32,000 bases of DNA from Deltaproteobacteria bacterium. GTDB taxonomy: Bacteria > Desulfobacterota > Desulfomonilia > Desulfomonilales > Desulfomonilaceae. Below the pieces are notes generated by a model that ran no database searches, was not told where the DNA came from, and saw only the letters and a program-made list of their open reading frames with translations. The translations under genes and the position numbers were made by a program. Of this stretch, positions 4,293 through 28,575 are shown piece after piece (position 1 is the stretch's first letter; each line of letters starts with the position of its first letter). The DNA lies in the NCBI GenBank assembly GCA_021777225.1, contig JAJYDQ010000037.1:2006-34005 (forward strand), given 5' to 3'.

Positions 4293-4856
4293 GTGAAGAG
4301 AATTGTTGTCGGCATAAGCGGAGCAAGTGGAACCATCTACGGGGTTCGCTTGCTAGAAGTTTTAAATCAACTTGATGGCATCGAGACTCATTTGATTCTT
4401 TCGCGGGGAGCAAGGGTTACAATGGAACATGAGACTTCGATCAGACCAGAAGCCCTGGAAAGACTAGCTCATGTATCTCACTCCCCTGACAATCTTGCAG
4501 CTTGTATTTCAAGTGGATCTTTCAAGACTCACGGTATGGTAGTAGCTCCTTGCTCAATGAAAAGCCTATCTATGATCGCCAACTCTATAGATGATAACCT
4601 TTTGATTCGATCAGCCGATGTAACCTTAAAGGAAAGAAGAAAACTTATTTTGATTGTCCGGGAAACCCCTCTCCATCTCGGCCATCTCCGTCAGATGACC
4701 GCCGTGACAGAGATGGGCGCGATAATATTGCCACCTGTCCCATCTTTCTACCACAAGCCAAAGACAATAGAGGATATTGTGGATCAGACGATAGGCAAGG
4801 CTTTAGATCAATTGGACATTGACCATTATCTGTTCCAACGCTGGTCAGGAGGATGA
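4293..4856 (+). CDS. ubiX: Flavin prenyltransferase UbiX (prFMN synthase)
   Basis: MKRIVVGISGASG N-terminus, CSMKSLSMIANS and LKERRKLILIVRETPLH are hallmark UbiX/Pad1 motifs. GTG 4293 is preferred over TTG 4275 because GGAAAGG lies 6 nt upstream. Confidence 0.9.
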   Translation: MKRIVVGISGASGTIYGVRLLEVLNQLDGIETHLILSRGARVTMEHETSIRPEALERLAHVSHSPDNLAACISSGSFKTHGMVVAPCSMKSLSMIANSIDDNLLIRSADVTLKERRKLILIVRETPLHLGHLRQMTAVTEMGAIILPPVPSFYHKPKTIEDIVDQTIGKALDQLDIDHYLFQRWSGG

Positions 4857-5365
4857 AAAAAGAAGAGCTTGAGAAAATAATTATCAACCTACTGGACTCA
4901 TCCACAACAATGACATTAAGCTGCACTTTATCGGATGAACCATGGGTGTGTTCAGTATTTTACGCTCGGCAAGGATTCGACCTCGTTTTTTTTTCGTCAC
5001 GGAATTCCAGACACTCTAAAGTTTTCAAGGAGAATCGTCGAGCCGCAGCATCAATTTATAAAGACTGCGATAGTTGGAGAGATATCAGAGGATTACAGAT
5101 AGAAGGTCGGGTAGACATTTTAACTAAAATACCAGCGGTGGCTAAGGGTACGGTAACTTATTTTAGGAAATATCCATTTGCAAGGGAGTTTTTCAAAGCA
5201 GGTTCAATTTTGTCTGATGGACTTGCGGGAAAAATGAGTGCCGTCGCTCTGTATGTTTTCCGACCGTCAAGCATATGGTACCTCAATAATCTGGATGGCT
5301 TGGGCGTTAGGTGGAAGCTAGATATACGCAACGGGCTGGCAGTTGACCCACCTGTTCAGGCCTGA
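4853..5365 (+). CDS. Pyridoxamine 5'-phosphate oxidase-like (split-barrel) FMN-binding protein
   Basis: 170 aa. The pattern TMTLSCT..DEPWVCSVFYA..DLVFFSS.NSRHSKVF.EN..AAASIY is typical of the PNPOx-like family. Its ATG overlaps the ubiX stop (GGAGGATGA), indicating translational coupling. Confidence 0.7.
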   Translation: MKKEELEKIIINLLDSSTTMTLSCTLSDEPWVCSVFYARQGFDLVFFSSRNSRHSKVFKENRRAAASIYKDCDSWRDIRGLQIEGRVDILTKIPAVAKGTVTYFRKYPFAREFFKAGSILSDGLAGKMSAVALYVFRPSSIWYLNNLDGLGVRWKLDIRNGLAVDPPVQA

Positions 5366-5454
5366 CCTTTAGGATTGATCATGATGCGTGGTCGTTTCAT
5401 GAAACGAAGGACGTGTAATATCGAATCATTAAGGAAGACAGAGGAGGATCAAAC

Positions 5455-7287
5455 ATGGCCGCGATGAATTTTCCGAATCCCCATGAGGCGGAGAGGATCC
5501 CAGGCACTGAAGGCTGGGAAAGAATGTATCCGTATCACTACCAGTATACTACTGATGATCCGGATCGGAAAAAATACGAAGAAAACATGTTTTGGTTTTA
5601 TGACGGGTTGCACTACCCAGAACCGATGTATCCTTTTGATATAATATGGGATGAAGCTTGGTTCCTGGCGTTATCCCAGTTCAACACCAGAATTTTTATA
5701 GTTCCTCCCGCCCTTGGTATCGATCACCGTATTCACAACGGTTATATTTACATAACCCCATTACCCGTCGCCGATCCTTCAGACATACCGAAGAGAGCCG
5801 AACTTTTCATGAAACGCGCCGGGTATTATTACCAAAACTGGGATCGATTGCATGACAACTGGGAAGCCAAGATGCGAGGTATTATTGAGCGTTTGGCTGA
5901 TTTGAAGATCCCGGAACTCCCCGAAATGGAAGAGGAGTCAGTGGTTACGGAGGGAATTGGAGTTTCAACGGGATACAAGCTACTCAAAGCTTACGATGAA
6001 CTTATCGACCTCGGAATCCTGGCATGGCAGTATCATTTTGAATTCCTTAACCTTGGATATGCCGCCTACGTAGTGTTCGTTGATTTTTGTCAGAAGGCTT
6101 TTCCGGACATCCCACTTCAACGGATAACCCAAATGGTGGGAGGCATAGATGTCATAATTTATAGGCCTGACGAGGAACTCAAGAAACTTGCAAAGCTAGC
6201 GATAGATCTCAAAGTTGATGAGATTGCCATGAAAGGTTCTGCAGCCGTTATCCTGAAAGAAATGGCAGCTTCTGAAAATGGAAGAAAATGGCTGGAGGCC
6301 CTTGAAACAGCTCGGCAACCATGGTTTTACGTTTCCACGGGCACAGGATGGTACCACCACGACAAGTCATGGAATGACGATCTTGATATCCCTTTATCAT
6401 CTATGGGTATTTACATTGAAAAGTTACGAAAAGGAGAAAACATAGACAGGCCCACCAAGGCCATTATCGCTGAAAGGGACCGACTGGCTTCCGAGTACAG
6501 GGCATTGCTCAAGACGGAGGCTGATATACAAACCTTCGATCAACTGCTTGGGACCTCCAGAACCGTTTTCCCATACGTGGAAAATCACCTCTTTTACGTT
6601 GAACATTGGTTTCATAGCCTTTTTTGGAACAAGATAAGGGAAGTATCGAAGATATTGGTTGATTTCAAATTTATAGAAGATGTTGAGGACATTTGGTATT
6701 TGAAGAGGTCCGAAATTAAGGATGCTCTTTGGGACGTGGTTACCGGTTGGGCTACCGGTAGCAATCCGAGGGGCCCGTTGGTATGGCCCAAGGAGGTGGC
6801 CTGGCGCAAAGAGGTCATGGCCAAGTTCCGTGAGTGGACACCGCCGGATGGTATGGGAACCATTCCGGAAACAATTAATGAGCCTTTTACGATTGTTCTC
6901 TGGGGTATTACATCCGAATCGATGTCTCATTGGGCTAAACTCAAGAGTATATCCGAAGGTGATCTGACGAAGATATACGGCTTTCCTGGTTCCCCTGGAG
7001 TGGTGGAAGGTAAGGTTCGCGTATGCCGCACAGTCAAAGAGGTGGGACAACTTCAGGAAGGGGAAATACTAGTCGCTCCTACAACTTCTCCTAGCTGGGC
7101 TCCGGCCTTCCAAAAAATCAAGGCTGCCATTACTGATGTTGGAGGGGTTATGTGCCATGCGGCTATAGTCTGTCGCGAGTATGGCCTTCCGGCCATCGTG
7201 GGAACAGGATCTGCGACATCGAGGCTGAAAACCGGCCAAAGAATAAGGCTTGATGGCTCCAAAGGTGAAATCAACATAATCGACTAG
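5455..7287 (+). CDS. ppsA: PEP-utilizing enzyme, phenylphosphate synthase alpha (PpsA)-like subunit with phospho-histidine swivel domain
   Basis: 610 aa. C-terminal mobile domain GSPGVVEGKVRV...LVAPTTSPSWAP...GGVMCHAAIVCREYGLPAIVG carries the catalytic His. The N-terminus (GTEGWERMYPYHYQ, FWFYDGLHYPEPMYPFD) matches my recollection of PpsA-type proteins. GAGGAGG SD lies 7 nt upstream. Confidence 0.8.
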   Translation: MAAMNFPNPHEAERIPGTEGWERMYPYHYQYTTDDPDRKKYEENMFWFYDGLHYPEPMYPFDIIWDEAWFLALSQFNTRIFIVPPALGIDHRIHNGYIYITPLPVADPSDIPKRAELFMKRAGYYYQNWDRLHDNWEAKMRGIIERLADLKIPELPEMEEESVVTEGIGVSTGYKLLKAYDELIDLGILAWQYHFEFLNLGYAAYVVFVDFCQKAFPDIPLQRITQMVGGIDVIIYRPDEELKKLAKLAIDLKVDEIAMKGSAAVILKEMAASENGRKWLEALETARQPWFYVSTGTGWYHHDKSWNDDLDIPLSSMGIYIEKLRKGENIDRPTKAIIAERDRLASEYRALLKTEADIQTFDQLLGTSRTVFPYVENHLFYVEHWFHSLFWNKIREVSKILVDFKFIEDVEDIWYLKRSEIKDALWDVVTGWATGSNPRGPLVWPKEVAWRKEVMAKFREWTPPDGMGTIPETINEPFTIVLWGITSESMSHWAKLKSISEGDLTKIYGFPGSPGVVEGKVRVCRTVKEVGQLQEGEILVAPTTSPSWAPAFQKIKAAITDVGGVMCHAAIVCREYGLPAIVGTGSATSRLKTGQRIRLDGSKGEINIID

Positions 7288-7317
7288 ATATTTGTCGTAA
7301 TACTATAGGAGTCCGCG

Positions 7318-8397
7318 ATGGACACATCAGGGTATGTGATTCCCTTTGAAAATTGCGATAACAGCATGGTGGGCATCGTAGGAGGAAAATGCGCCAGTCT
7401 GGGGGAACTAATGAAGGCCAGAATCCCGGTTCCCCCGGGCTTTGCTATCACAACCGCCGCATATGAACAATTCCTCAATGACAATGACCTGAAAAAAAAG
7501 ATTATCAATCGTCTGACCAATCTAAATGATGAGGACCTTTCTAAACTAGAAGAAGCGTCAAAAGATATCCGAAGCTGGATTGAGGCCGGAACGATAAACG
7601 AAACATTGGAAGACATCATCGCTTCGCATTACCGCCTCCTGTCCCGCCGTTCCCGCATACCGGCACTGCCGGTTGCGGTTCGATCTTCAGCAACAGCGGA
7701 AGATCTTCCTGGCGCCAGCTTTGCCGGCCAACAGGACACTTTCCTTTGGATAAGGGGAGTGGATCAGTTGCTCGACAGAACAAAAAGGTGCTGGTCCAGC
7801 CTGTTCACACCCAGAGCAATCGCTTACAGAATAAAAATGGGATTTGATCATTCCGTGGTGCTTATTAGCGTTGCGATCCAGAAGATGGTCAGATCGTTTA
7901 CGGCAGGAGTTATGTTTACACTGAATCCAGCCACGGGTGATAGGGCTACAGTAGTTATAGACTCGAACTACGGTTATGGGGAAAGTGTAGTGTCCGGGGA
8001 AGTAACGCCTGACCAGTTTCACGTGAACAAAATCACTATGGATGTTGTAAAGAAGACCGTTTCAGAGAAGAAGATTTATTACACGACGGACCCGGAATCC
8101 GATGAAGTTCTAAAACTCGATTTACATCCAGAACGACAAACATCACAGAGTCTTCTGGACGAAGAGATAATTCAGCTTGCCAAAGTCGGGAAAATTATTG
8201 AGCAACATTACGGGCGTCCTATGGATATAGAATGGGCCACAGAAAAGGGACTGCCCTACAAAGGGGAAATCTTTATTCTTCAGAGCCGCCCTGAAACCGT
8301 TTGGAGCCAAAAGGAGGCTAAACCGTTAGTAGAGCCCAAGGCTTCTGCGATCGAACAAATAATCGCTGGGCTGATCAAGGGACGAACCATTACATGA
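7318..8397 (+). CDS. ppsB: Pyruvate phosphate dikinase N-terminal (ATP-grasp) domain protein, phenylphosphate synthase beta (PpsB)-like
   Basis: 359 aa. VGGKCASLGEL, PVPPGFAITT, AVRSSATAEDLPGASFAGQQDT and DIEWA...ILQSRPET form the PPDK_N / PEP synthase ATP-binding module. AGGAG SD present. Confidence 0.85.
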   Translation: MDTSGYVIPFENCDNSMVGIVGGKCASLGELMKARIPVPPGFAITTAAYEQFLNDNDLKKKIINRLTNLNDEDLSKLEEASKDIRSWIEAGTINETLEDIIASHYRLLSRRSRIPALPVAVRSSATAEDLPGASFAGQQDTFLWIRGVDQLLDRTKRCWSSLFTPRAIAYRIKMGFDHSVVLISVAIQKMVRSFTAGVMFTLNPATGDRATVVIDSNYGYGESVVSGEVTPDQFHVNKITMDVVKKTVSEKKIYYTTDPESDEVLKLDLHPERQTSQSLLDEEIIQLAKVGKIIEQHYGRPMDIEWATEKGLPYKGEIFILQSRPETVWSQKEAKPLVEPKASAIEQIIAGLIKGRTIT

Positions 8398-8434
8398 GCG
8401 TCAAATAACCTAAGATAAGGAGATGTGGATTCGT

Positions 8435-9841
8435 ATGAAAGACATGAGAGATTTTGTCAGGGAAGCTGAGGCAAAAGGACTCTGCAAAAGGATTAAGGCG
8501 GAGGTGGACTGGGACCTCGAACTGTCACATATCGCCAAACTCAACGAGGAACAAAGCGGTCCCGCTCTGTTATTTGAAAATGTAAGGGATTATCACACAC
8601 CGGTAATCACCAGCGTATGCACTACGACGGAACGTCTGTCATTGATCATGGGGCAGCCACTCGGCTCAACCTTAGTGAATCTTTATGACGCGTGGGCCAG
8701 GTTAGGCGAGAATCTGCTTCCTCCTAAGTATATTGACAAGGCGGCAGCGCCGTGCAAGGAAAATATTTTGACCGGAGACCAGATCGATCTCTACAAGTTC
8801 CCGGTTCCCCGATGGTACCCACTGGATGGCGGGCGTTATATAGGCACTGCCCACTTTTACATTACGAAAGATCCTGAAACAGGCTGGGTCAACCTGGGTA
8901 CTTACCGCGCGCAACTACTGGGAAAGGACAAGATCGGAACCCAGTTCATCAAGGGCAAACACGCCGACATCATGCTAAAAAAATATAAGGCATTGGGCAA
9001 ACCGATGCCTGTGGCCTCGATAATTGGATGTGACCCTTTGCTTTTCATCATGGGGGCGGCCCGAATATCCGCTTCCGTGTCGGAATATGACGTGGCCGGA
9101 GCCCTCAGGGGAACTCCTGTTGAAGTAGTAAAGGGAGAAACCGTCGATCTGCCCATCCCAGCGCATGCCGAAATCGTTATCGAAGGTGAGGTGGACGCCG
9201 ACAAATTCATGGAAGAAGGACCGTTTGGCGAGTACACCGGTTATTACTCTGGCGTGGGCGCCGACCCGCGAAATTTCGTGAATGTGAAATGCGTCACTCA
9301 CCGAAATAATCCCATTCTGTGGGGAACCACAGTGGGTCGGGCAGTGACCGACACTCATATGACCATGGCGCTTTCCTACGGAGCGACCCTCTGGCAGCAA
9401 CTCCTCGCTATGAAGATACCGGGTTTAAAAGCCGTTTACTGTCCCCCCGAAGGGTCGGGCAGATTCCTTGCTATCATCTCTGTTAAACAGATGTATCCAG
9501 GCCATGCGGACCAAGTGCTGACAGCGGCAATCTCTACGGAGATGGGCGCATATGGTCTAAAAACAGTGATCGTTGTAGATGAAGACATCGATCCATGGGA
9601 TATCCCACGAGTGATGTACGCGCTCAGCTTCAGATTTCAACCCAACCGTTCTCAGGTCATCAAGCGGGGCAGATCAACACCGTTGGATCCTTCACTGCCG
9701 ATCGACGCCAGAGACATAACTGGCCGTCTCCTCCTGGATGCTACCATTCCTTATGACTGGAAAGAGAAGCCAATTCCTATCGAACTGGACCCAAAAGTGG
9801 TGGAAAGAGTCAAGGGAAGGTGGTCCGAACTGGGACTTTGA
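8435..9841 (+). CDS. UbiD-family prFMN-dependent (de)carboxylase
   Basis: MKDMRDFV N-terminus, NLGTYRAQL, HAEIVIEGEV and EGPFGEYTGYYSG are UbiD-family signatures. ATG 8435 is preferred because AAGGAG abuts ATG 8423 with zero spacing. Confidence 0.9.
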   Translation: MKDMRDFVREAEAKGLCKRIKAEVDWDLELSHIAKLNEEQSGPALLFENVRDYHTPVITSVCTTTERLSLIMGQPLGSTLVNLYDAWARLGENLLPPKYIDKAAAPCKENILTGDQIDLYKFPVPRWYPLDGGRYIGTAHFYITKDPETGWVNLGTYRAQLLGKDKIGTQFIKGKHADIMLKKYKALGKPMPVASIIGCDPLLFIMGAARISASVSEYDVAGALRGTPVEVVKGETVDLPIPAHAEIVIEGEVDADKFMEEGPFGEYTGYYSGVGADPRNFVNVKCVTHRNNPILWGTTVGRAVTDTHMTMALSYGATLWQQLLAMKIPGLKAVYCPPEGSGRFLAIISVKQMYPGHADQVLTAAISTEMGAYGLKTVIVVDEDIDPWDIPRVMYALSFRFQPNRSQVIKRGRSTPLDPSLPIDARDITGRLLLDATIPYDWKEKPIPIELDPKVVERVKGRWSELGL

Positions 9842-12806: not shown

Positions 12807-12905
12807 AATTCTGATTCCAGGTTCTGGGAAACTATTGGTTGCAAAAACCTCGGCTTGAATTCGATAACGTGGAATTACTCCCTACAAACGATTCAGGAGG
12901 CTATA

Positions 12906-15149: not shown

Positions 15150-15166
15150 TATAAGTTTTTCTTATA
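15150..15166. promoter_or_regulatory. LysR-type operator (T-N11-A dyad) TATAAG-ttttt-CTTATA
   Basis: Perfect 6-5-6 palindrome with arms identical to the site at 3895-3911. It lies between lysR2 and the flavoprotein operon. Confidence 0.55.
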
Positions 15167-16976: not shown

Positions 16977-17237
16977 ATGAAGGTTAATTCGACTGGATTA
17001 GGAAAAACAACCATGGTGGCCCATTTTGCCAACCTTGAAAAAGTTAACGGTGATTCAGCCCCGGCGATGAGACTTAGCATAGAAGCTACAGAACCTGTGC
17101 ATTGGTCTATAAAAGCCACTGTTGGAGGAGACGACCTTAGAGCGTTCGCCTGCATGATGCTAAGACCTTCCAACCTTTTCTGTGTATTAAAGTTACTTAT
17201 TTTTGGGAAAAAGCTCACGCCGCCGGAATCCAATTAG
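16977..17237 (+). CDS. Small hypothetical protein (86 aa) between the two flavoprotein genes
   Basis: Strong AGGAGG SD 5 nt upstream of the ATG and tight packing between neighbours. Hydrophobic C-terminal stretch LFCVLKLLIFG. No family recognised. Confidence 0.55.
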   Translation: MKVNSTGLGKTTMVAHFANLEKVNGDSAPAMRLSIEATEPVHWSIKATVGGDDLRAFACMMLRPSNLFCVLKLLIFGKKLTPPESN

Positions 17238-21626: not shown

Positions 21627-21714
21627 TCCAAGGCCTGCAGGATCAAAAGTTTAACTATTGATTCGGGTAGTTTTTGTACCCGGACCTGCTCTCTCCGGAA
21701 AGGATCGGATTGAA

Positions 21715-23455: not shown

Positions 23456-23776
23456 ATGTACGTCAGAATGACGTTCTTCCGTGTTAAAGAAGGAAAAATG
23501 GATGACCTTCGAAACATCTACAACAAACAGGTCATCTCCGCCCACAAAGGCCATAAAGGGATTCGGTTTGTGCATCTACTTGAGTGCATGGATAGCGTTA
23601 ACGATGGCATTTCCATCACCGCATGGGACACCAAAGCTGACGTTGACGCATACGAAAAAAGCGGTGATTATGAAAAACTTGTTGCAATGTTTAAAGAAAT
23701 GTACGCTGCTGAGCCGATCTTGAAATCTTATGAGATAACGGCCAGTTCCGAGCCAATCCTTCTTCGAATTTTTTAG
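23456..23776 (+). CDS. ABM (antibiotic biosynthesis monooxygenase)-like dimeric alpha-beta-barrel protein
   Basis: 106 aa. The MYVRMTFFRVKEG..D start and ITAWDTKADVDAYEKSGDY pattern are typical of ABM/ferredoxin-like small proteins. AAAGGAG SD present. Confidence 0.55.
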   Translation: MYVRMTFFRVKEGKMDDLRNIYNKQVISAHKGHKGIRFVHLLECMDSVNDGISITAWDTKADVDAYEKSGDYEKLVAMFKEMYAAEPILKSYEITASSEPILLRIF

Positions 23777-23790: not shown

Positions 23791-24372
23791 ATGAAATTCC
23801 TAAATCCACAGACGCGGTTTCAGGAAATACGCGAGATGGCGGAATCATTCCTGGACACACGAAACAATCTAATTCATATGGAGGTTTCAAGCGCGTTCGC
23901 CTTGAGATTGCTGAACTCTGAACCTGGCGATGAGACTGTGGTAATGCCTGCAATAATCCTTCACGACGTAGGATGGAAAATGGTACCCGAAGAATTGCAG
24001 ATTCAAGCTTTCGGGCCAAAAGCCAAAGACATGGAGACTAACAGAATTCATGAGGTTGAGGGAGCGCGAATAGCACGCGAAATTCTGGAAAAGCTCGAAT
24101 ACGAAGCTTCTTTGGTGGACGAGATAGTTGAGATCATTCTCGGACATGATTCCCGTAGAAACCCATTATCTTTTAACGACGCTATTGTAAAAGACGCAGA
24201 TAAACTATGGCGTTTTTCTAAGGAAGCGTTCAAAATCGACCCTGAGCGCTTTGGAATCGATCCCTTGGCGCACATGCATTGGCTTGGCCAACAAATAGAT
24301 GGATGGTTTGTAACAGAAACCGGTAGAAAAGTTGCCCGTGAAGAGCAACGACTCCGGGTCGTAAGTCTTTAA
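23791..24372 (+). CDS. HD-domain metal-dependent phosphohydrolase, paralog 2
   Basis: AIILHDVGWKMVPEELQ, NRIHEVEGARIAREILEK, ILGHDSR and AIVKDADKLWRFS are near-identical blocks shared with 13566-14165. GGAGGA SD present. Confidence 0.8.
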   Translation: MKFLNPQTRFQEIREMAESFLDTRNNLIHMEVSSAFALRLLNSEPGDETVVMPAIILHDVGWKMVPEELQIQAFGPKAKDMETNRIHEVEGARIAREILEKLEYEASLVDEIVEIILGHDSRRNPLSFNDAIVKDADKLWRFSKEAFKIDPERFGIDPLAHMHWLGQQIDGWFVTETGRKVAREEQRLRVVSL

Positions 24373-24397: not shown

Positions 24398-27058
24398 ATG
24401 AAAAGAGTTCAGCTAACCATTAACGGGGTCCCACACACATTGGACGTTGATTACCAGCTAGTCCTGGTGGATTTATTACGTGACAAACTTTCTCTGACAG
24501 GGACCAAGCAATCTTGCGATAGAAAGGGACAATGCGGTTCTTGCACAGTAATAGTAAACGACAAGGCAGTACATTCCTGTCTTGTAAAGGTAGCTGATCT
24601 TGATGGAGCCGAAGTCATTTCCATAGAGGGACTTGGCACACCAGAAAACCCTCATCTAATCCAGGAAGCTTTTGCGCTTGCTGGAGCAGTTCAGTGCGGT
24701 TTTTGCACACCTGGTATGGTCATGTCTACCAAGGCTCTCCTCGACAAAGCCCCCAATCCCGGAACTGAACAAATCATGAAAGCCCTCAGGGGGAATTTGT
24801 GTCGATGTACCGGGTACAAAAAAATAATTGAGGCGGTAGAATTGGCGGCAAGATTCTTGAGAGGAGAAATTTCCCCTGAACAGGTACGACCAAAGGCTTC
24901 AGCCGGCCTAATCGGTATGTCACGCCCTAGACCCCATGCCTTGACGCTGGCTTGCGGTACCGCAAAATTTTCTGCGGACATCCGGATGGATGGCATGCTT
25001 GAATTGGCGGTCGTTCGCAGTCCTCATCAGCACGCTATAATAAAATCCGTTGACACTTCTCATGCCGAGAAGATACCCGGCGTTATTGGGATAATGACAG
25101 CCAGTGACATTAGGGGATCAAATCGGATTAGAGAAGATCAGCCACTGTTGTGTGACAAGAAAATTCACGTCTTGGGTGACGCCATTGCAATAGTAGCGGC
25201 GGAAACCAAGGCACAGGCTTTAGCCGGCGTCGAAGCTGTGAAAATAGAATACGAAACGCTGCCCGCCGTAACGACAACTTCGGAGGCCCTAAAGCCAGAG
25301 TCTCCCAGGGTTCATGATGAATCGCCTAACCTTTGCTATGAACACCCTCAGATTAAAGGAAACGCTGAAGAAGCGCTAAAGCAAGCAGCCGCAACAGTGG
25401 AGAGTAAATTTTCAACTCAACTCATCCATCAGGCGGCTTTGGAGCCGGAAGCGTCAGTGGCCTACCTTGAACCCGCTGAAGAAGGTGAAGATCCAAAACT
25501 TATAGTAATAGGACGCAGCATTTATATCCATTATCATTTGATGGTATTACAGGAAGCCCTAGGCTGGAACAATATGCGTTACGAGCAGGCATTTATTGGC
25601 GGCCAATTTGGAATGAAGATGGACATCACGGCAGAGGGTATTGCGGGGGCTGCAGCTCTTCATTTTAAGCGTCCCGTGCGGTATGTGTGTTCACTAGCGG
25701 AGTCAATGCAAATAACCACGAAGAGACACCCATTCGAAATGAAGACACGTCTCGGGGTCGACGACAAAGGTAAGCTTACGGCATACGCTATAGATTTTAC
25801 AGTCGAAAACGGGGCCTACACGTCTGCGGGTAAATCGGTCCTAAACCGGGCGTTGTATATGCTCAGCGGATCATACGATATTCCGAATGTCCGAGCTAAA
25901 GGTCAGTTGGTTTACACTAATAACGCTTGGGGTGGAGCCGCTAGAGGAGCGGGTCCACCTCAAGTCAACTTTGCTTTGGAGTCGGCCATTGAGCTTTTGG
26001 CCGCCAAAATTGGCATGGATCCTCTGGAATTTCGCCTGTCAAACTCTTTGCAACCAGGCAAATCAATATCTACGGGCCAGATTGTGGAAGAGTGGCCCTA
26101 TCCAGGGTGCCTCCAGGCTCTAAGACCGCACTATCAAAGGGCCCTCAAAGAATCTACCGATCAGAAGAAAGGTAAGATCAGACGAGGTGTTGGAATCGCC
26201 GGAGGAAGTTTTGGCATAGGTAGAGGCGGCCCTGACAGGTCGAATGTGGCCGTGGAAATCGACCCCGACGGAGGACTCACGGTTTACGGGTCCATCGCCG
26301 ACCCAGGGGAAGGGAACGACGCTATGCTTACACAGATAGCTTCTCACCTGACCAATATACCTCCAGAAAAAATTCGTCTGGTCATCCGGGACACGGACAG
26401 GACTCCCGACGCTAGCTCGGCCTCGGGTAGCCGTGTTACATATATGAGCGGCGGGGCTATGGTAAAAGCCATAGAAGCCCTCAAGGCCGGAATGGCAGAA
26501 GTTGGAGCCGCTTCTTACGATGCGCTTGTCGCAGCAGGAAAACCCACCAGGTACCTGGGTTCCAGGATCTCTGAAACCACGTTCCTGGATAATAAAACGG
26601 GTCAGGGCTCACCTTTCGAATCCCGTGTTCATGGCGTTCAAATGGCTGAAGTTGAGGTTGACATTGAGACAGGCGGCGTCAGAATCCTTAAGATAACTGC
26701 TGTTGTTGATCCTGGAACCATCATTAATCCGATGATAGTTGAAGGGCAGATCGAAGGTGGAGTGGATATGGGCGCGGGGATGGCTCTCCGTGAGCATTAC
26801 GTTCATGGTCTGACTACTGATTGGAAAGGAATCAAGTTTCCAACCATGGGGACAGCGTTTGACATTGACGTAATCCTCCTTCAGACACATCGTAAACGAG
26901 GCACACTGGGAGCGGTAGGCGTGGGAGAATTTGTTCTATTACCAACTGCGGCGGCAATAGTTTCCGCTATTCAGAACGCCACAGGAGGGTCCCGCATCTG
27001 TCACCTTCCGGCTACCCCCGAACGAGTCCTTGAATCTTTGAAGCCAGGAGTAAGTTAA
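24398..27058 (+). CDS. Molybdenum hydroxylase of the xanthine oxidase family, single-polypeptide MOP-type aldehyde oxidoreductase (2x[2Fe-2S] plus Moco domains, no FAD domain)
   Basis: 886 aa. N-terminal CDRKGQCGSCTV...C (plant-type 2Fe-2S) and QCGFCTPG...CRCTGY (second 2Fe-2S). Moco-domain motifs GGQFGMK and C-terminal GAVGVGEF, which holds the catalytic Glu. Confidence 0.9.
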   Translation: MKRVQLTINGVPHTLDVDYQLVLVDLLRDKLSLTGTKQSCDRKGQCGSCTVIVNDKAVHSCLVKVADLDGAEVISIEGLGTPENPHLIQEAFALAGAVQCGFCTPGMVMSTKALLDKAPNPGTEQIMKALRGNLCRCTGYKKIIEAVELAARFLRGEISPEQVRPKASAGLIGMSRPRPHALTLACGTAKFSADIRMDGMLELAVVRSPHQHAIIKSVDTSHAEKIPGVIGIMTASDIRGSNRIREDQPLLCDKKIHVLGDAIAIVAAETKAQALAGVEAVKIEYETLPAVTTTSEALKPESPRVHDESPNLCYEHPQIKGNAEEALKQAAATVESKFSTQLIHQAALEPEASVAYLEPAEEGEDPKLIVIGRSIYIHYHLMVLQEALGWNNMRYEQAFIGGQFGMKMDITAEGIAGAAALHFKRPVRYVCSLAESMQITTKRHPFEMKTRLGVDDKGKLTAYAIDFTVENGAYTSAGKSVLNRALYMLSGSYDIPNVRAKGQLVYTNNAWGGAARGAGPPQVNFALESAIELLAAKIGMDPLEFRLSNSLQPGKSISTGQIVEEWPYPGCLQALRPHYQRALKESTDQKKGKIRRGVGIAGGSFGIGRGGPDRSNVAVEIDPDGGLTVYGSIADPGEGNDAMLTQIASHLTNIPPEKIRLVIRDTDRTPDASSASGSRVTYMSGGAMVKAIEALKAGMAEVGAASYDALVAAGKPTRYLGSRISETTFLDNKTGQGSPFESRVHGVQMAEVEVDIETGGVRILKITAVVDPGTIINPMIVEGQIEGGVDMGAGMALREHYVHGLTTDWKGIKFPTMGTAFDIDVILLQTHRKRGTLGAVGVGEFVLLPTAAAIVSAIQNATGGSRICHLPATPERVLESLKPGVS

Positions 27059-27071
27059 GAGGACAGACGCC

Positions 27072-27419
27072 GTGATTAAGGGTGATTGTCCTGAAGTTCC
27101 GGAGCCTGATATCGACGATCAGAAGGGTCCGAATTCGTTGTTTGACGAAGAGGGATTCCTTAACAATCCTGAATCGTGGAACGAAACCATTGCGAAGAAA
27201 ATAGCTCAGGGGCAAGGTTTACCTGAGCTAAATGATTCTCACTGGCAAGTCATACGTTTCCTCAGAAATTACTACCTGACAATGGGTAAGGCTCCGTTGA
27301 ACAGCGAGTTAAAAAAGGGCGTAGGTTTGAACATGACGCAGATCGAGAAGATGTTTCCCACCGGCATCAGGCTTGGAGCGCGACGCATAGCAGGGTTGCC
27401 GAATCCAAAAAACTGTTGA
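27072..27419 (+). CDS. TusE/DsrC-family sulfur-carrier protein (single C-terminal Cys)
   Basis: 115 aa. FDEEGFL..PESW.E.IA, HWQVIRFLRNYY and a C-terminal arm AGLPNPKNC ending in Cys. The second conserved Cys of true DsrC, about 10 residues upstream, is absent. GTG start with AAGAGGA upstream. Confidence 0.8.
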   Translation: MIKGDCPEVPEPDIDDQKGPNSLFDEEGFLNNPESWNETIAKKIAQGQGLPELNDSHWQVIRFLRNYYLTMGKAPLNSELKKGVGLNMTQIEKMFPTGIRLGARRIAGLPNPKNC

Positions 27420-27423
27420 ATTT

Positions 27424-28575
27424 ATGTATCCGGAAACGATTTATTTAGATAACGCCGCTACTAGTTTCCCCAAGCCTCCTGAAGTTATTCACGCCATGTT
27501 GGAGGATTACAAACGCTTCGGGGTATCGCCGGGACGCGGTAGCTACGACCTGGCGGTTAGGGCGGAAGAACTGGTGAACGGTATAAGGCGCCAGGTTACA
27601 GATTTTTTTTCTGGGTACGATCCCAATAGGGTCATATTTTCGTACAACGCCACAGACGCTTTAAACACCCTGATCCTGGGACTGGCTGAACCCGGGATCC
27701 ATGTTATCAGTTCGAGGCTTGAACACAATTCTGTTCTCAGGCCCTTACACCACCTCAGAGAACATGGAATCATTAGTTTGGACCTCGTACCTTTTGATTC
27801 TCAAGGCTTTATTGACCCGGATGATGTCAAGAAGGCCATTAATCCTAAGACCTCTTTGGTAATAATTAATCACGCTTCCAATGTTATGGGGACTATTCAG
27901 CCAGTTCAGGAAATAGGGCGTATTTGCCATGAACAAAGTGTAGCGTTTGCCATTGACGTATCTCAAAGCGCCGGGATCATTCCTGTAGATATGAAATCAT
28001 GGCACGTGGACGCAATAGCGTTTACTGGGCATAAGTCTCTGTTGGGACCCACCGGTATTGGAGGCCTGGCGCTCAGGGATGGCCTGGATATTCCTGCCAG
28101 CCGCTTTGGAGGCACTGGAGTCGATTCCTACAGTCTTTTCCAAACTTCGGACTATCCTTACCGTCTCGAAGCCGGCACGATAAATGTTCTTGGGATTATT
28201 GGCCTTTCGGCGGGGTTAGCGCATATTTCGCAAGTTGGAATTGAGAACATTTACCGTCATGAAATGGATCTTTTGAACAAGTTACGCGACCGTTTGTCAG
28301 CCCTCAAAAGGCTGCGTCTCTATTGCTGTGACAGTTTGATTAATCATCTCCCGCTACTCACGTTAAACATAGAAGGCATGAACCCTGCGGATTTAGGCGC
28401 TATTCTGGACGGCGACTTCAATATCTCGGTTCGCACCGGCCTGCATTGCGCCCCTCTCGTGCACGAGGATTTGGGCACAACGCCCCACGGTAGCGTGAGA
28501 TTCAGCTTGGGACTTTTCAATACCGAAGAGCACATTGTAGCCGTCGAAAAAGCCTTCAAGACAATATTGGAATAA
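27424..28575 (+). CDS. Cysteine desulfurase (class V aminotransferase fold, NifS/CsdA-like)
   Basis: IYLDNAATSFP N-terminus, PLP-lysine motif FTGHKSLLGP, and active-site loop RTGLHCAP. Starts 4 nt after the upstream stop. Confidence 0.85.
   Translation: MYPETIYLDNAATSFPKPPEVIHAMLEDYKRFGVSPGRGSYDLAVRAEELVNGIRRQVTDFFSGYDPNRVIFSYNATDALNTLILGLAEPGIHVISSRLEHNSVLRPLHHLREHGIISLDLVPFDSQGFIDPDDVKKAINPKTSLVIINHASNVMGTIQPVQEIGRICHEQSVAFAIDVSQSAGIIPVDMKSWHVDAIAFTGHKSLLGPTGIGGLALRDGLDIPASRFGGTGVDSYSLFQTSDYPYRLEAGTINVLGIIGLSAGLAHISQVGIENIYRHEMDLLNKLRDRLSALKRLRLYCCDSLINHLPLLTLNIEGMNPADLGAILDGDFNISVRTGLHCAPLVHEDLGTTPHGSVRFSLGLFNTEEHIVAVEKAFKTILE

What the first reader, a model, noticed from the sequence alone, without database searches (positions are those of the whole stretch)
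4293..28575. Composite O2-independent aromatic/alkyl-aromatic activation island combining chemistries that I do not know to co-occur
All on one strand within 24 kb: (1) two divergent phenylphosphate-synthase-like split kinases (5455-8397 and 19944-22740); (2) a UbiD/UbiX prFMN (de)carboxylase system; (3) an aryl-acid CoA ligase; (4) a CtmAB-like pair of phytoene-dehydrogenase-type flavoproteins plus an SDR; (5) a MOP-type Mo aldehyde oxidoreductase with its own sulfur relay. The first two operons have divergent LysR regulators with identical operators. The parts give a coherent chain: methyl to alcohol (flavoproteins), to aldehyde (SDR), to acid (Mo enzyme), to CoA thioester (ligase). This could be combined with phosphorylation and para-carboxylation of a phenolic OH, or with decarboxylation of a dicarboxyl-CoA by UbiD. 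Known anaerobic pathways use subsets only: phenol uses Pps plus Ppc, phthalates use ligase/transferase plus UbiD plus UbiX, and limonene uses CtmAB plus dehydrogenases. Candidate substrates are cresols or alkylphenols, phenolic monoterpenoids, or toluates via phthalates. The substrate cannot be read from the sequence.
Basis: partly seen in the sequence, partly recalled or inferred. Interest (0 to 1): 0.8.

Follow-up and report, generated by a model that had tools for sequence, protein, structure and literature searches.

The report
Phenol module beside anaerobic Cre-like module
Two gene sets for breaking down phenolic compounds without oxygen lie side by side in an uncultured sulfate-reducer relative: one matches a known phenol cluster, and the other looks like an uncharacterised, oxygen-free counterpart of the 'phosphorylate first, then oxidise the methyl group' cresol pathway of Corynebacterium, and it is widespread in uncultured anaerobes.

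Summary
The genes are there as described, in a Desulfomonilaceae MAG. They are two units, not three blocks.

Unit A (4275-14165) is a phenol-type activation set. Its UbiD is 83% and its ANL ligase 81% identical to the phenol-induced phe cluster of Desulfatiglans anilini, in the same order UbiD-ligase-UPF0261-UbiX. It also has its own PpsAB-type dikinase, a CBS protein and an HD hydrolase. Unit A is a 12.7-kb block that is missing at the same site in sister genomes.

Unit B (15150-28575) is one module conserved across at least four phyla: CtmAB-type flavoproteins with a small ORF, an SDR, a divergent PpsAB-like kinase, an aldehyde oxidoreductase (Mo-type MOP, or W-type AFOR elsewhere) and an HD phosphohydrolase. 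Its kinase, SDR and HD have homologues in actinobacterial cre (4-cresol) clusters. There a P450 system and an NAD-dependent aldehyde dehydrogenase take the places of the flavoproteins and MOP.

Best reading: unit B is an O2-independent Cre-like route (alkylphenol, aryl phosphate, phospho-alcohol, phospho-aldehyde, phospho-acid, hydroxybenzoate), next to a phenol carboxylation set and probably co-regulated with it. The substrate is not proven. An aniline-type (Pas-like) kinase could not be excluded. All related loci are MAGs.

The parts
1675..2949 (-). UPF0261 family protein (copy a), co-oriented with LysR1 and overlapping it
   Evidence: Pfam UPF0261 N- and C-terminal domains. D. anilini has the same arrangement, a UPF0261 gene beside a LysR gene divergent from UbiD; 47% identity.
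2946..3866 (-). LysR-type regulator 1, divergent from unit A
   Evidence: Pfam HTH_1 and LysR_substrate. Start set at the Met before the HTH. 31% identical to LysR2.
3895..3911 (.). LysR box TATAAG-N5-CTTATA, upstream of LysR1 and unit A
   Evidence: One of only two matches in the window; 0.04 expected by chance.
4275..4856 (+). UbiX flavin prenyltransferase (makes prFMN for UbiD)
   Evidence: NF004685, 279 bits against a cut-off of 188. 61% identical to the D. anilini phe-cluster UbiX.
4853..5365 (+). PNPOx-like split-barrel (FMN-binding type) protein, overlapping the end of ubiX; role unknown
   Evidence: Weak Pfam PNPOx_N and Pyridox_ox_2 matches. Conserved in L009-L011.
5455..7287 (+). PpsA1: substrate-binding and swivel-His subunit of a phenolic-substrate dikinase
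   Evidence: NF006152, 996 bits against a cut-off of 723. 42-43% identical to D. anilini Pps-alpha and to Rhodococcus CreH-like proteins. Phospho-His motif CHAAIV.
7318..8397 (+). PpsB1: ATP-grasp subunit of the dikinase
   Evidence: PPDK_N, 389 bits. 43-45% identical to CreI-like proteins.
8423..9841 (+). UbiD-family carboxylase, orthologue of D. anilini phenylphosphate carboxylase Ppc-beta2
   Evidence: TIGR02724, 488 bits against a cut-off of 469. 83% identical to H567DRAFT_02059. Only 69 bits to phthaloyl-CoA decarboxylase.
9898..11559 (+). ANL-family adenylating enzyme (presumed aryl-acid CoA ligase)
   Evidence: AMP-binding domains. 81% identical to D. anilini H567DRAFT_02058, which is phenol-induced and of unknown function (PMC6114531). 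Closest solved structures are DhbE and salicylate-AMP ligases, but the DhbE His234/Asn235/Tyr236 pocket residues are Gly/Gly/Ala here.
11556..12806 (+). UPF0261 family protein (copy b), always next to the ligase
   Evidence: Pfam. The ligase-UPF0261 pair is also found in D. anilini, L035 and L040.
12855..13547 (+). Protein with two CBS domains, candidate PpsC-like stimulatory subunit
   Evidence: Two CBS stretches. The parallel to Thauera PpsC is from memory; D. anilini's putative pps-gamma is an AcuB-type protein (PMC6114531).
13566..14165 (+). HD-domain phosphohydrolase, copy 1
   Evidence: Pfam HD. 70% aa identity to HD2. 34-38% identical to the HD proteins of Rhodococcus cre-type clusters.
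14213..15133 (-). LysR-type regulator 2, divergent from unit B
   Evidence: Pfam. Conserved next to the flavoprotein gene in most Desulfomonilaceae loci.
15150..15166 (.). LysR box TATAAG-N5-CTTATA, upstream of LysR2 and FlaA
   Evidence: The same box lies at the same place in L005, L006, L008, L012, L013, L015, L055 and L062.
15342..16967 (+). FlaA: CtmAB/delta24-desaturase-type flavoprotein subunit carrying the covalent-FMN His motif
   Evidence: CrtI/CrtO-like matches. The motif GFLHNTHA fits the published consensus (PMC11061730) and is conserved in homologues.
16977..17237 (+). Conserved small ORF (86 aa) between FlaA and FlaB, possibly a third subunit
   Evidence: Present in 45 of 49 loci. 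Called as a gene in L001, L003, L004, L088 and L089. No Pfam match.
17282..18946 (+). FlaB: paralogous flavoprotein subunit, with Cys where CtmB and delta24-SD-beta have the flavinylated His
   Evidence: 30% identical to FlaA. The motif GFLQNPCAH is conserved across loci.
18959..19714 (+). Classical SDR (alcohol dehydrogenase step)
   Evidence: adh_short. 43% identical to the SDR of Rhodococcus cre-type clusters. Present in 47 of 49 loci.
19944..21626 (+). PpsA2: divergent substrate-binding and swivel-His kinase subunit (560 aa)
   Evidence: PEP-utilizers and Rph_4th domains. 25-27% identical to PpsA1, D. anilini Pps-alpha and CreH-like proteins. SHAAIV phospho-His motif. At least 79% conserved in 120 clusters, with only metagenome or MAG names among those that carry one.
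21658..22740 (+). PpsB2: ATP-grasp partner of PpsA2
   Evidence: PPDK_N, 280 bits. 35% identical to PpsB1 and 34% to CreI-like proteins.
22776..23435 (+). 219-aa protein made of two NIPSNAP/ABM-like halves; role unknown
   Evidence: Internal repeat, E = 2e-18. Weak NIPSNAP match. Present in 30 of 49 loci. The AF2 single-sequence model failed.
23456..23776 (+). ABM-domain protein (106 aa); role unknown
   Evidence: Pfam ABM. Present in 31 of 49 loci.
23791..24372 (+). HD-domain phosphohydrolase, copy 2 (candidate for the CreD-like dephosphorylation step)
   Evidence: Pfam HD. Its only PLSDB plasmid homologues lie inside Rhodococcus cre-type clusters, at 38-42% identity. Replaced by DUF89/ARMT1-like or HAD phosphatases in other loci.
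24398..27058 (+). MOP-type molybdenum aldehyde oxidoreductase (fused 2x[2Fe-2S] and Mo domains, no FAD domain)
   Evidence: Pfam domains. 583 bits over the full length to 1DGJ/1SIJ, with the GVGE catalytic Glu kept. Replaced by W-type AFOR in other loci.
27072..27419 (+). TusE/DsrC-family protein with a single C-terminal Cys (persulfide carrier type)
   Evidence: TIGR03342, 75 bits against a cut-off of 53.5. The sequence ends ...PKNC.
27424..28575 (+). Class-V PLP cysteine desulfurase (TIGR01977 / EF2568-SclA family), presumed donor of the Mo sulfido ligand
   Evidence: TIGR01977, 424 bits against a cut-off of 377. The role is inferred from adjacency to MOP.

Best explanation
The stretch holds two catabolic gene sets for phenolic compounds. 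They work without O2, sit next to each other, and are probably controlled through the same kind of LysR operator.

Unit A (4275-14165) is a phenol-type activation set:
1. A PpsAB-type dikinase (PpsA1/PpsB1, perhaps helped by the CBS protein) phosphorylates a phenolic OH at the cost of ATP.
2. The prFMN enzyme UbiD carboxylates the aryl phosphate to a hydroxybenzoate. UbiX supplies the cofactor.
3. The conserved ANL ligase and UPF0261 partners act on or with that product.

Unit B (15150-28575) is a single conserved module. It works like the aerobic Cre pathway for 4-cresol, rebuilt with O2-independent enzymes:
1. PpsA2/PpsB2 phosphorylates the hydroxyl of a methyl- or alkyl-substituted phenol.
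2. The CtmAB-type flavoprotein FlaA/small ORF/FlaB hydroxylates the methyl group, taking the oxygen from water.
3. The SDR oxidises the alcohol to the aldehyde.
4. The Mo enzyme MOP oxidises the aldehyde to the acid. MOP receives its sulfido ligand from the TusE-like protein and the cysteine desulfurase.
5. The HD hydrolase removes the phosphate and gives a hydroxybenzoate. This can enter the same downstream route as the product of unit A.

Shown here: gene content, homologies, synteny and the insertion/deletion boundary. Inferred: every catalytic step of unit B, the order 'phosphorylate first', and the substrate (a p-cresol-like compound is the leading guess).
For: Unit A:
- UbiD is 83%, the ligase 81%, UPF0261 53% and UbiX 61% identical to the D. 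anilini cluster. The order UbiD-ligase-UPF0261-UbiX is the same, and a UPF0261 gene lies beside the divergent LysR gene in both.
- The D. anilini cluster is phenol-induced, and phenylphosphate synthase activity was measured in that organism (PMC6114531).
- PpsA1 passes NF006152. It is 42-43% identical to Pps-alpha and CreH-like proteins, the distance reported between characterised phenolic dikinases (PMC12167813).

Unit B as one unit:
- Among 49 loci with at least 9 kb downstream of FlaA: FlaB 49, small ORF 45, SDR 47, PpsA-type 47, PpsB-type 46, aldehyde oxidoreductase 39 (MOP 18, AFOR 23), phosphatase 31.
- These loci come from Thermodesulfobacteriota, Bacillota, Chloroflexota and Actinomycetota.
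- Non-homologous replacement of MOP by AFOR, and of HD by DUF89/ARMT1-like or HAD phosphatases, shows that the functions are conserved: aldehyde oxidation and phosphate removal.

Link to the Cre pathway:
- tblastn of HD2 against all PLSDB plasmids hits only two Rhodococcus plasmids. Both hits lie inside clusters with the order IclR-P450-PEP/pyruvate-binding-PEP-utilizing-SDR-ferredoxin-reductase-HD-ALDH.
- Identities to those clusters: HD2 38-42%, SDR 43%, PpsB2 34%, PpsA2 26-27%.
- The CreH-like protein passes NF006150.
- The role of CreHI and the Cre enzyme list are given in PMC9618137, PMC12167813 and PMC8796525.

Flavoprotein family: FlaA carries the covalent-FMN motif shared by limonene dehydrogenase CtmAB and delta24-desaturase (PMC11061730).

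Aromatic effector: XylR_N/V4R-type regulators sit next to the module in two unrelated loci.

Regulatory link: an identical LysR box lies before both units and is conserved before FlaA in distant loci.

Recurrent neighbourhood: a second UbiD clade, the ligase, UPF0261 and UbiX lie next to unit B in L001/L068, L040 and L046, and a ligase-UPF0261 pair follows it in L035.
Against: - No enzyme of unit B has been assayed, and no organism carrying it is cultured. All 80 genome loci are MAGs.
- PpsA2 is only 25-27% identical to any phenolic kinase compared here. It has the size (560 against 554 aa) and the divergence (26.7% to Pps-alpha) reported for the aniline kinase Pas-alpha of D. anilini (PMC7500099). 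It might therefore phosphorylate an amine or another group.
- A free para-OH would help benzylic hydroxylation, so the reason for phosphorylating first is not obvious.
- No electron acceptor for the flavoprotein is encoded in the window.
- The ABM, 219-aa and 86-aa proteins have no assigned role.
- The ligase lacks the DhbE pocket residues, and its D. anilini orthologue is of unknown function (PMC6114531).
- No 4-hydroxybenzoyl-CoA reductase gene is in the window, unlike the D. anilini cluster.
- Unit A is absent next to unit B in most Desulfomonilaceae loci, so the two need not act on one substrate.
- The family assignment of CreD and CreG in C. glutamicum itself rests on memory. Only the Rhodococcus cre-type clusters were examined here.
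Confidence: 0.5

Rival explanations
1. One linear pathway. A single methylated phenol (o- or m-cresol, a xylenol, thymol or carvacrol) is phosphorylated, carboxylated para to the OH by UbiD, and also has its methyl group oxidised. Units A and B would be two halves of one route.
For: - UbiD, UbiX, the ligase and UPF0261 turn up next to unit B in at least four lineages: the window clade, L040/L045/L046, and L001/L068, with a ligase-UPF0261 pair in L035.
- The same LysR box precedes both units.
- L040 shows only one (PpsA2-type) kinase together with UbiD within the 21.6 kb fetched.
Against: - Only 9 of 49 loci have a UbiD within 10 kb, and only 8 have the ligase.
- Sister Desulfomonilaceae genomes carry unit B at the same site without unit A.
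- Unit A's core is orthologous to a cluster that handles plain phenol in D. anilini (PMC6114531).
Confidence: 0.15
2. Unit B acts on aromatic amines. PpsA2/PpsB2 would be a phenylphosphoamidate-synthase-like (Pas) N-kinase, as in aniline degradation by D. anilini. The module would oxidise the methyl group of an N-phosphorylated toluidine-like or other amino- or N-heteroaromatic compound, and HD would act as a phosphoamidase.
For: - Pas-alpha is 554 aa and only 26.7% identical to Pps-alpha (PMC7500099). PpsA2 is 560 aa and 25-26% identical to PpsA1 and Pps-alpha.
- The ani cluster also holds UPF0261, an acyl-CoA synthetase and a second-clade UbiD about 52% identical to Ppc-beta2 (PMC7500099).
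- The UbiDs next to unit B in L001, L040 and L046 form a second clade, 52-57% identical to Ppc-beta2.
Against: - PpsA2 was never compared directly with Pas-alpha, because the sequence could not be obtained.
- HD and SDR homologues sit in cre (cresol) clusters.
- The module is common in peat, lake sediment, groundwater and soil MAGs, where methylated anilines are not expected to be abundant (inference).
Confidence: 0.12
3. Unit B is a terpenoid or isoprenoid route like the limonene pathway of Castellaniella. The flavoprotein would hydroxylate an allylic methyl group, followed by alcohol and aldehyde oxidation and CoA ligation. The kinase would serve an ATP-dependent dehydration of an alcohol, as in anaerobic cholesterol side-chain activation.
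For: - FlaA/FlaB belong to the CtmAB/delta24-desaturase flavoprotein type (PMC11061730).
- An ATP-dependent dehydration through a phosphoester, followed by allylic hydroxylation, is documented (PMC7411048).
- The ligase scores nearly as well to cyclohexanecarboxylate-CoA and medium-chain ligases.
Against: - The kinase, SDR and HD trio matches cresol clusters.
- XylR_N/V4R aromatic-type regulators sit next to the module.
- Phenol-type UbiD and Pps genes are repeated neighbours.
- The kinase of the cholesterol pathway is not identified in that paper, so no homology supports the parallel.
Confidence: 0.1
4. Pure neighbours. Units A and B have no functional or regulatory connection, and their adjacency in this clade is an accident of a 12.7-kb insertion.
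For: - The insertion/deletion boundary is clean relative to L013 and L015.
- Most unit B loci lack unit A.
Against: - An identical operator precedes both units, with 0.04 matches expected by chance.
- Related UbiD/ligase sets have been recruited next to unit B independently in other phyla.
- An HD paralogue 70% identical to HD2 closes unit A.
Confidence: 0.1

Closest known systems
Cre pathway for 4-cresol in Corynebacterium glutamicum (CreHI, CreJEF, CreG, CreC, CreD), and the cre-type clusters on Rhodococcus plasmids
   Same: - Unit B has the same set of functions: a two-component PpsAB-like kinase, methyl-group oxidation, an SDR alcohol dehydrogenase, aldehyde oxidation and an HD phosphohydrolase.
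- The kinase, SDR and HD are homologous to the Rhodococcus proteins: PpsA2 26-27%, PpsB2 34%, SDR 43%, HD2 38-42%.
   Different: - The O2-dependent P450 with its ferredoxin and reductase is replaced by a CtmAB-type flavoprotein pair plus a small ORF.
- The NAD(P)-dependent aldehyde dehydrogenase is replaced by a Mo (or W) aldehyde oxidoreductase.
- The kinase is far more divergent than the known phenolic dikinases are from each other.
- The hosts are strict anaerobes.
- There are extra ABM and NIPSNAP-like genes.
phe (phenol) gene cluster of Desulfatiglans anilini
   Same: Unit A shares UbiD (Ppc-beta2, 83%), the ANL ligase (81%), UPF0261 (53%) and UbiX (61%) in the same order. Both have a divergent LysR gene with a UPF0261 gene beside it, and a PpsAB-type kinase.
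   Different: - The window lacks the three 4-hydroxybenzoyl-CoA reductase genes.
- The kinase comes first and is only 42% identical (NF006152 rather than NF006153 only).
- The window adds PNPOx-like, CBS and HD genes.
Limonene dehydrogenase CtmAB (Castellaniella defragrans) and delta24-steroid desaturase (Sterolibacterium denitrificans)
   Same: Two paralogous subunits of about 550 aa, and the N-terminal covalent-flavin motif in FlaA (PMC11061730). The expected chemistry is an O2-independent attack on an activated methyl or alkyl carbon.
   Different: - FlaB has Cys in place of the flavinylated His.
- A conserved small ORF lies between the subunit genes.
- The genes are always linked to a kinase.
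- No direct sequence comparison with CtmA or CtmB could be made.
Phenylphosphoamidate synthase and carboxylase (ani cluster) of D. anilini
   Same: A short (about 555-560 aa) PpsA-like subunit about 26% identical to Pps-alpha, with UPF0261, an acyl-CoA synthetase and a second-clade UbiD as partners (PMC7500099).
   Different: The paper does not report flavoprotein, SDR or aldehyde oxidoreductase genes in the ani cluster. The identity of PpsA2 to Pas-alpha is unknown.
Desulfovibrio gigas / D. desulfuricans aldehyde oxidoreductase (MOP/MOD)
   Same: Same domain order without an FAD domain, full-length alignment at 583 bits, and the catalytic Glu conserved.
   Different: It scores below the NCBIfam equivalog cut-off (780 against 1100). 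It is embedded in a catabolic module, with adjacent TusE-like and SclA-family desulfurase genes.

Membership tests
Phenolic-substrate two-component dikinases (PpsAB / CreHI / HpeHI) | Two proteins: an ATP-grasp (PPDK_N) subunit, and a subunit with the substrate-binding and swivel-His (PEP-utilizers) domains | tested here: met
   Both pairs have this architecture. The Rph_4th domain is recorded on PpsA2 homologues.
Phenolic-substrate two-component dikinases (PpsAB / CreHI / HpeHI) | Conserved phospho-histidine in the swivel domain, preceded by Ser or Cys | tested here: met
   PpsA1 has ...MCHAAIV... and PpsA2 has ...LSHAAIV.... The motif is described in PMC12167813.
Phenolic-substrate two-component dikinases (PpsAB / CreHI / HpeHI) | About 45% pairwise identity of the large subunit to characterised members | tested here: inconclusive
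   PpsA1 is 42-43% identical to D. anilini Pps-alpha and to Rhodococcus CreH-like proteins, so it meets the feature. PpsA2 is 25-27% identical, so it does not.
Phenolic-substrate two-component dikinases (PpsAB / CreHI / HpeHI) | ATP-dependent phosphorylation of a phenolic OH | not testable with these tools
   Needs an enzyme assay.
Phenylphosphate carboxylase, D. anilini (strict-anaerobe) type | UbiD subunit orthologous to Ppc-beta2, with UbiX in the same cluster | tested here: met
   83% identity; TIGR02724 above its cut-off; UbiX 61%.
Phenylphosphate carboxylase, Thauera type (alpha-beta-gamma-delta) | Second UbiD-like alpha subunit, small gamma subunit and HAD/KdsC-type delta phosphatase encoded together | tested here: not met
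   There is only one UbiD gene and no HAD gene in the window. An HD hydrolase is present instead.
Phthaloyl-CoA decarboxylase (UbiD family) | Close sequence similarity to Pcd | tested here: not met
   69 bits to 8OZ5/8PMK, against 298 bits to the best UbiD structure.
CtmAB / delta24-SD heterodimeric flavoenzymes | Two paralogous subunits of about 550 aa, about 26-30% identical, encoded side by side | tested here: met
   FlaA and FlaB are 30% identical. Delta24-SD alpha and beta are 26% identical (PMC11061730).
CtmAB / delta24-SD heterodimeric flavoenzymes | Covalent-FMN motif G-F-L/R-X-N/S-T/L-H-A in both subunits | tested here: inconclusive
   FlaA has GFLHNTHA, which meets the motif. FlaB has GFLQNPCAH, with Cys replacing His, and this is conserved across loci.
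CtmAB / delta24-SD heterodimeric flavoenzymes | Sequence identity to CtmA/CtmB, and water-dependent hydroxylation | not tested
Activity needs experiment.
Cre (4-cresol) pathway gene set | Kinase pair, SDR and HD phosphohydrolase homologous to those of cre clusters | tested here: met
   Identities to the Rhodococcus cre-type clusters: HD2 38-42%, SDR 43%, PpsB2 34%, PpsA2 26-27%.
Cre (4-cresol) pathway gene set | Cytochrome P450 CreJ with ferredoxin and reductase, and an NAD(P)-dependent aldehyde dehydrogenase CreC | tested here: not met
   None of these is in the window. Flavoproteins and MOP occupy those functional slots.
MOP-type aldehyde oxidoreductase (xanthine oxidase family) | Fused 2x[2Fe-2S] and Mo-cofactor domains, no FAD domain, catalytic Glu (Glu869 of D. 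gigas MOP) | tested here: met
   Pfam domain order. Full-length alignment with GVGE conserved.
MOP-type aldehyde oxidoreductase (xanthine oxidase family) | NCBIfam NF045668 equivalog score | tested here: not met
   780 bits against a cut-off of 1100.
Phenylphosphoamidate synthase (Pas-alpha/Pas-beta) | Orthology of PpsA2/PpsB2 to H567DRAFT_03871/03868 | not tested
   Only size and divergence agree (PMC7500099). The sequence was not retrievable: the look-up of ten representatives returned no D. anilini name.
LysR-regulated divergent operons | Inverted repeat fitting T-N11-A in the divergent intergenic region | tested here: met
   TATAAG-N5-CTTATA lies 29 and 17 bp upstream of the two LysR starts. 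It is conserved in other loci.

The most novel reading that the evidence does not exclude
Unit B encodes a third, so far unrecognised anaerobic route for cresols or alkylphenols, alongside p-cresol methylhydroxylase and fumarate addition. The phenol would first be phosphorylated at the expense of ATP. A CtmAB-type flavoenzyme would then hydroxylate the methyl group of the aryl phosphate with water, and the side chain would be oxidised to the carboxylate before dephosphorylation. The route would be widespread in uncultured Desulfomonilaceae, other Thermodesulfobacteriota, Bacillota, Chloroflexota and Actinomycetota of sediments, peat, soil and groundwater. It would also extend limonene-dehydrogenase-type flavoenzymes to benzylic carbons.
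Probability: 0.35. Interest if true: 0.8.

Novelty: new variant of a known kind. Interest (0 to 1): 0.62.

Why it matters
- p-Cresol and related alkylphenols are common products of anaerobic tyrosine and lignin breakdown. Only two anaerobic activation mechanisms are established for them.
- A phosphorylation-initiated, flavin-dependent route would add a third. It would also explain what a very conserved and widespread but unannotated gene module does in uncultured anaerobes from peat, sediments and aquifers.
- It would show that the 'phosphate handle' logic of the aerobic Cre and Hpe pathways also exists in strict anaerobes.
- It would give the small CtmAB/delta24-desaturase flavoenzyme family a new substrate class.
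- Unit A adds a conserved UbiD-ANL ligase-UPF0261-UbiX block. Its ligase and UPF0261 parts are still unexplained even in the studied D. anilini phenol cluster.

Tried and rejected
- **Phthalate-type reading of UbiD:** rejected. It scores 69 bits to phthaloyl-CoA decarboxylase and is 83% identical to Ppc-beta2.
- **Salicylate or DHB specificity of the ligase:** considered because DhbE and salicylate-AMP ligases are the best solved relatives. Not supported: the DhbE His234/Asn235/Tyr236 positions are Gly/Gly/Ala.
- **The 2026 paper on a flavoprotein in anaerobic benzene degradation (PMC13416013):** a different family (glycolate oxidase / VAO-PCMH type), not relevant.
- **ATP-dependent steroid dehydratase as a model for the kinase:** the genes are not identified in that paper, so it stays an analogy only.
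- **Promoter and terminator scans:** no better than shuffled sequence.
- **Other negative scans:** no tRNA or Rfam element.
- **AF2 on the 219-aa protein without an alignment:** failed, pLDDT 36. No fold search was run.
- **Attempts to obtain D. anilini Pas-alpha:** the paper's supplements hold images only, and the look-up of ten representative-search hits gave no named hit.
- **Literature:** Du et al. 2016 and Schmeling et al. 2004 are not held. One literature search was wasted by a loose min_terms setting. Searches that paired the phytoene-dehydrogenase-type flavoprotein with phenylphosphate synthase or with cresol, or phenylphosphate synthase with aldehyde oxidoreductase and UbiD, found no paper. 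A search for limonene dehydrogenase alone found nine papers, none on such a module.
- **Exact-sequence look-up of the window's UbiD:** found nothing, probably because of a different start codon.

Full report
**What is in the window**

Cluster look-ups place the sequence in an uncultured Desulfomonilaceae (Thermodesulfobacteriota) MAG lineage.

- an 86-aa ORF between the two flavoprotein genes;
- a PNPOx-like gene overlapping the end of ubiX;
- two UPF0261 genes;
- a 2xCBS protein;
- two HD-domain paralogues, 70% identical in protein and about 73-76% in DNA;
- an ABM protein;
- a 219-aa protein made of two NIPSNAP/ABM-like halves.

The two kinase pairs are distant paralogues: 26% for the large subunits and 35% for the ATP-grasp subunits. 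The two flavoproteins are 30% identical.

The 'identical operators' are two copies of TATAAG-N5-CTTATA, 29 and 17 bp upstream of the corrected LysR starts. They are the only matches in 32 kb, against 0.04 expected by chance, and their spacers differ. LysR1 and LysR2 are 31% identical.

**Unit A (4275-14165) is a phenol-type set with a studied orthologue**

The UbiD passes the phenylphosphate-carboxylase-beta model (TIGR02724, 488 bits against 469). It is remote from phthaloyl-CoA decarboxylase (69 bits).

A homology search found the Desulfatiglans anilini protein named phenylphosphate carboxylase subunit beta at 83% identity. Its genomic context is a UPF0261 gene and a divergent LysR gene, then UbiD-ANL ligase-UPF0261-UbiX, three 4-hydroxybenzoyl-CoA-reductase-like genes, and PpsA-PpsB. 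Identities to the window are UbiD 83%, ligase 81%, UPF0261 53%, UbiX 61%.

That cluster (H567DRAFT_02049-02059) is phenol-induced at RNA and protein level, and phenylphosphate synthase activity was measured in that organism. The authors state that the function of the '2,3-dihydroxybenzoate-AMP ligase' 02058, the orthologue of the window's ligase, is unknown (PMC6114531).

The window's kinase PpsA1 is not the orthologue of D. anilini Pps-alpha (42%). It belongs to the same group of phenolic dikinases: it passes NF006152 (996 bits against 723), while D. anilini Pps-alpha passes only NF006153 and a Rhodococcus CreH-like protein passes NF006150. About 45% is the distance reported between PpsA, CreH and HpeH (PMC12167813).

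The closest solved relatives of the ligase are DhbE and salicylate-AMP ligases. The DhbE pocket residues His234/Asn235/Tyr236 are Gly/Gly/Ala here, so no substrate can be read from the sequence.

**Unit B (15150-28575) is a single module conserved across phyla**

A search with flavoprotein A found more than 3000 relatives. The 120 listed are 57-97% identical to it, and every listed hit that carries an organism name is a MAG.

A scan of one genome per species gave 166 relatives. All of the best 80 are MAGs of Desulfomonilaceae and other Thermodesulfobacteriota, Syntrophorhabdus, Desulfobacterales, Bacillota (including Dethiobacter), Anaerolineales/Dehalococcoidia and Actinomycetota/Thermoleophilia; a Peptococcaceae MAG came from a separate contig look-up.

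tblastn of all window proteins against these loci gives the following counts for the 49 loci with at least 9 kb downstream:

| Gene | Loci (of 49) |
|---|---|
| FlaB | 49 |
| Small ORF | 45 |
| SDR | 47 |
| PpsA-type subunit | 47 |
| PpsB-type subunit | 46 |
| Aldehyde oxidoreductase | 39 (MOP 18, tungsten-type AFOR 23) |
| Phosphatase | 31 (HD 25, DUF89/ARMT1-like 9) |
| ABM protein | 31 |
| 219-aa protein | 30 |

Compact examples:
- L088: XylR_N/V4R regulator-AFOR-HAD hydrolase-FlaA-small ORF-FlaB-SDR-PpsA-PpsB-HD.
- L001, a Peptococcaceae MAG: the whole composite, including UbiD, ligase, UbiX, an HD-HAD fusion and MOP.

The non-homologous swaps (MOP for AFOR; HD for DUF89 or HAD) show that aldehyde oxidation and phosphate removal are the conserved functions.

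**What unit B resembles**

FlaA carries GFLHNTHA. This fits the covalent-FMN consensus G-F-L/R-X-N/S-T/L-H-A shared by both subunits of limonene dehydrogenase CtmAB and of the steroid delta24-desaturase (PMC11061730). FlaB has a conserved GFLQNPCAH, with Cys in place of that His.

The decisive lead came from the phenolic kinases. [quoted passage not shown] The step assignments (P450 methyl oxidation, alcohol dehydrogenase, aldehyde dehydrogenase, phosphohydrolase) are from my memory of Du et al. 2016, which is not held.

A tblastn of HD2 against all 72,556 PLSDB plasmids hit only two records. Both hits lie inside Rhodococcus clusters with the order IclR regulator-P450-PEP/pyruvate-binding protein-PEP-utilizing enzyme-SDR-2Fe-2S ferredoxin-FAD reductase-HD protein-aldehyde dehydrogenase.

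Identities to those clusters:

| Window protein | Identity to Rhodococcus cre-type cluster proteins |
|---|---|
| HD2 | 38-42% |
| HD1 | 34-38% |
| SDR | 43% |
| PpsB2 | 34% |
| PpsA2 | 26-27% |
| PpsA1 | 43% |

Unit B therefore has a counterpart for each Cre function. Three are homologous: kinase, SDR and HD. Two are replaced by O2-independent enzymes: the flavoprotein stands in for the P450 system, and a Mo or W aldehyde oxidoreductase stands in for the NAD-dependent aldehyde dehydrogenase.

XylR_N/V4R regulators beside the module in two unrelated loci fit an aromatic effector.

**How the two units relate**

Compared with sister Desulfomonilaceae loci L013 and L015, the window matches on the left through the methyltransferase and a small zinc-ribbon ORF (window 239-1495). 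It matches on the right from LysR2 onward (14206 onward). The 12.7 kb in between (UPF0261a, LysR1 and unit A) is replaced there by about 1 kb holding a DUF89-like gene.

Unit A lies next to unit B only in the closest relatives, L005-L012. Even so, three observations argue for a link:
- A second UbiD clade, 70-95% identical within itself and 52-57% to Ppc-beta2, lies next to unit B in L040, L046 and L001/L068 with UbiX, and with the same ligase family (63-69%) in L040 and L001/L068. The ligase is followed by UPF0261 in L040, as is a 60% ligase after unit B in L035.
- The LysR box is conserved in front of FlaA in loci as distant as L055 and L062.
- The same box precedes unit A.

I read this as selected adjacency and probable co-regulation of two peripheral routes that feed one downstream pathway, not as one linear pathway. 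The single-pathway reading is not excluded.

**Open problem with the kinase**

D. anilini also has an aniline (ani) cluster. Its kinase Pas-alpha is 554 aa and only 26.7% identical to Pps-alpha. It is encoded with UPF0261, an acyl-CoA synthetase and a UbiD 52% identical to Ppc-beta2 (PMC7500099).

PpsA2 (560 aa, 25-26% to PpsA1 and Pps-alpha) has the same size and divergence. The UbiDs that accompany unit B elsewhere are at the same distance from Ppc-beta2. I could not obtain Pas-alpha to compare. An N-kinase role, and hence aromatic-amine substrates, remains a live rival.

The representative search shows that PpsA2 belongs to a large group of short PpsA-like proteins: 831 cluster representatives at E <= 1e-30, with the nearest outside its own cluster at 41-54%. 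PpsA2 itself is at least 79% conserved over 120 clusters, and those that carry an organism name are MAGs.

**The Mo enzyme and its helpers**

The MOP aligns over its full length with the Desulfovibrio enzymes and keeps the catalytic Glu.

The adjacent TusE-like protein has a single C-terminal Cys. The desulfurase belongs to TIGR01977, the family of Enterococcus SclA. A role in delivering the Mo sulfido ligand is inferred from adjacency. These two genes are conserved only in near relatives, as far as the 10-kb flanks allow one to see.

**Verdict**

- The oxidation chain is well supported.
- The 'unknown combination' has a clear precedent in the Cre pathway.
- Unit A is a new member of a studied phenol cluster type.
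- Unit B is an uncharacterised, widespread, O2-independent variant whose substrate and first step need experiments.

Noticed in passing
window 4853-5365: A PNPOx-like split-barrel (FMN-binding type) gene overlaps the stop of ubiX, and is conserved in L009-L011. It could take part in prFMN handling or maturation in an anaerobe, where the oxidant for prFMN maturation is unknown.
   Followed up: partly
window 8423-12806; L090 10001-15258; L040 1347-6333: The block UbiD-ANL ligase-UPF0261-UbiX is conserved from D. anilini to this MAG and to other lineages. The ligase is phenol-induced but of unknown function in D. anilini, and the aniline-induced ani cluster also holds a UPF0261 protein. The ligase and UPF0261 may belong to the carboxylation system itself rather than to a later CoA-ligation step.
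   Followed up: partly
window 17282-18946 (FlaB residues about 52-60): FlaB and its homologues have a conserved Cys (GFLQNPCAH) where CtmAB and delta24-desaturase subunits have the flavin-linked His. This suggests a cysteinyl-flavin link, or no covalent flavin, in this subunit.
   Followed up: partly
L003 6623-9136 (same contig as L064): An 837-aa ORF joins a PpsA2-like N-terminal substrate-binding region (60% identical) to AFOR domains 2 and 3, with no swivel domain and no AFOR_N. It is either a true fusion linking the kinase's substrate domain to the aldehyde oxidoreductase, or a deletion or assembly artefact.
   Followed up: no
L003 14841-21549: In a Chloroflexi MAG the flavoprotein-SDR genes are followed by CCG-domain (HdrD-like) proteins and a 1224-aa HdrA/MvhD-like protein, with a small ferredoxin upstream. 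This may point to the electron route for the flavoprotein, which is not encoded in the window.
   Followed up: no
window 27424-28575 and 24398-27058: The desulfurase falls in the TIGR01977 family of Enterococcus selenocysteine lyase SclA, a marker of selenium-dependent molybdenum hydroxylases. The MOP scores 583 bits to the Se-dependent xanthine dehydrogenase model, below its cut-off of 830. A selenium rather than sulfur ligand was not examined further.
   Followed up: no
window 1251-1490 (minus strand); L013 7573-7833: A conserved 79-aa Cys-rich (zinc-ribbon-like) ORF marks the left edge of the 12.7-kb block that is present in the window but absent in L013 and L015. No tRNA, repeat or integrase was seen at the boundaries.
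   Followed up: partly
L013 7998-8963; L040 17240-18142; L088 9398-9943; L001 4631-5911: Different phosphatase families (DUF89/ARMT1-like, HAD, and an HD-HAD fusion) take the place of, or accompany, the HD protein in unit B of other lineages.
   Followed up: partly
window 22776-23435: The 219-aa protein is an internal duplication of two halves of about 100 aa (29% identical, E = 2e-18) with a faint NIPSNAP match. Together with the adjacent ABM protein, that makes three alpha+beta-barrel-type units of unknown role in the module.
   Followed up: partly
window 30582-30989 (minus strand): A 135-aa ORF matches only positions 98-192 of the 297-position ARPP-1 profile, so it is probably a truncated gene remnant. 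It is outside the finding.
   Followed up: no
L089 14440-21626: One metagenome locus has two PpsA2-like genes after the SDR, separated by a PaaK-type (AMP-binding_C_2) ligase and small unknown ORFs. This is a variant architecture of unit B.
   Followed up: no
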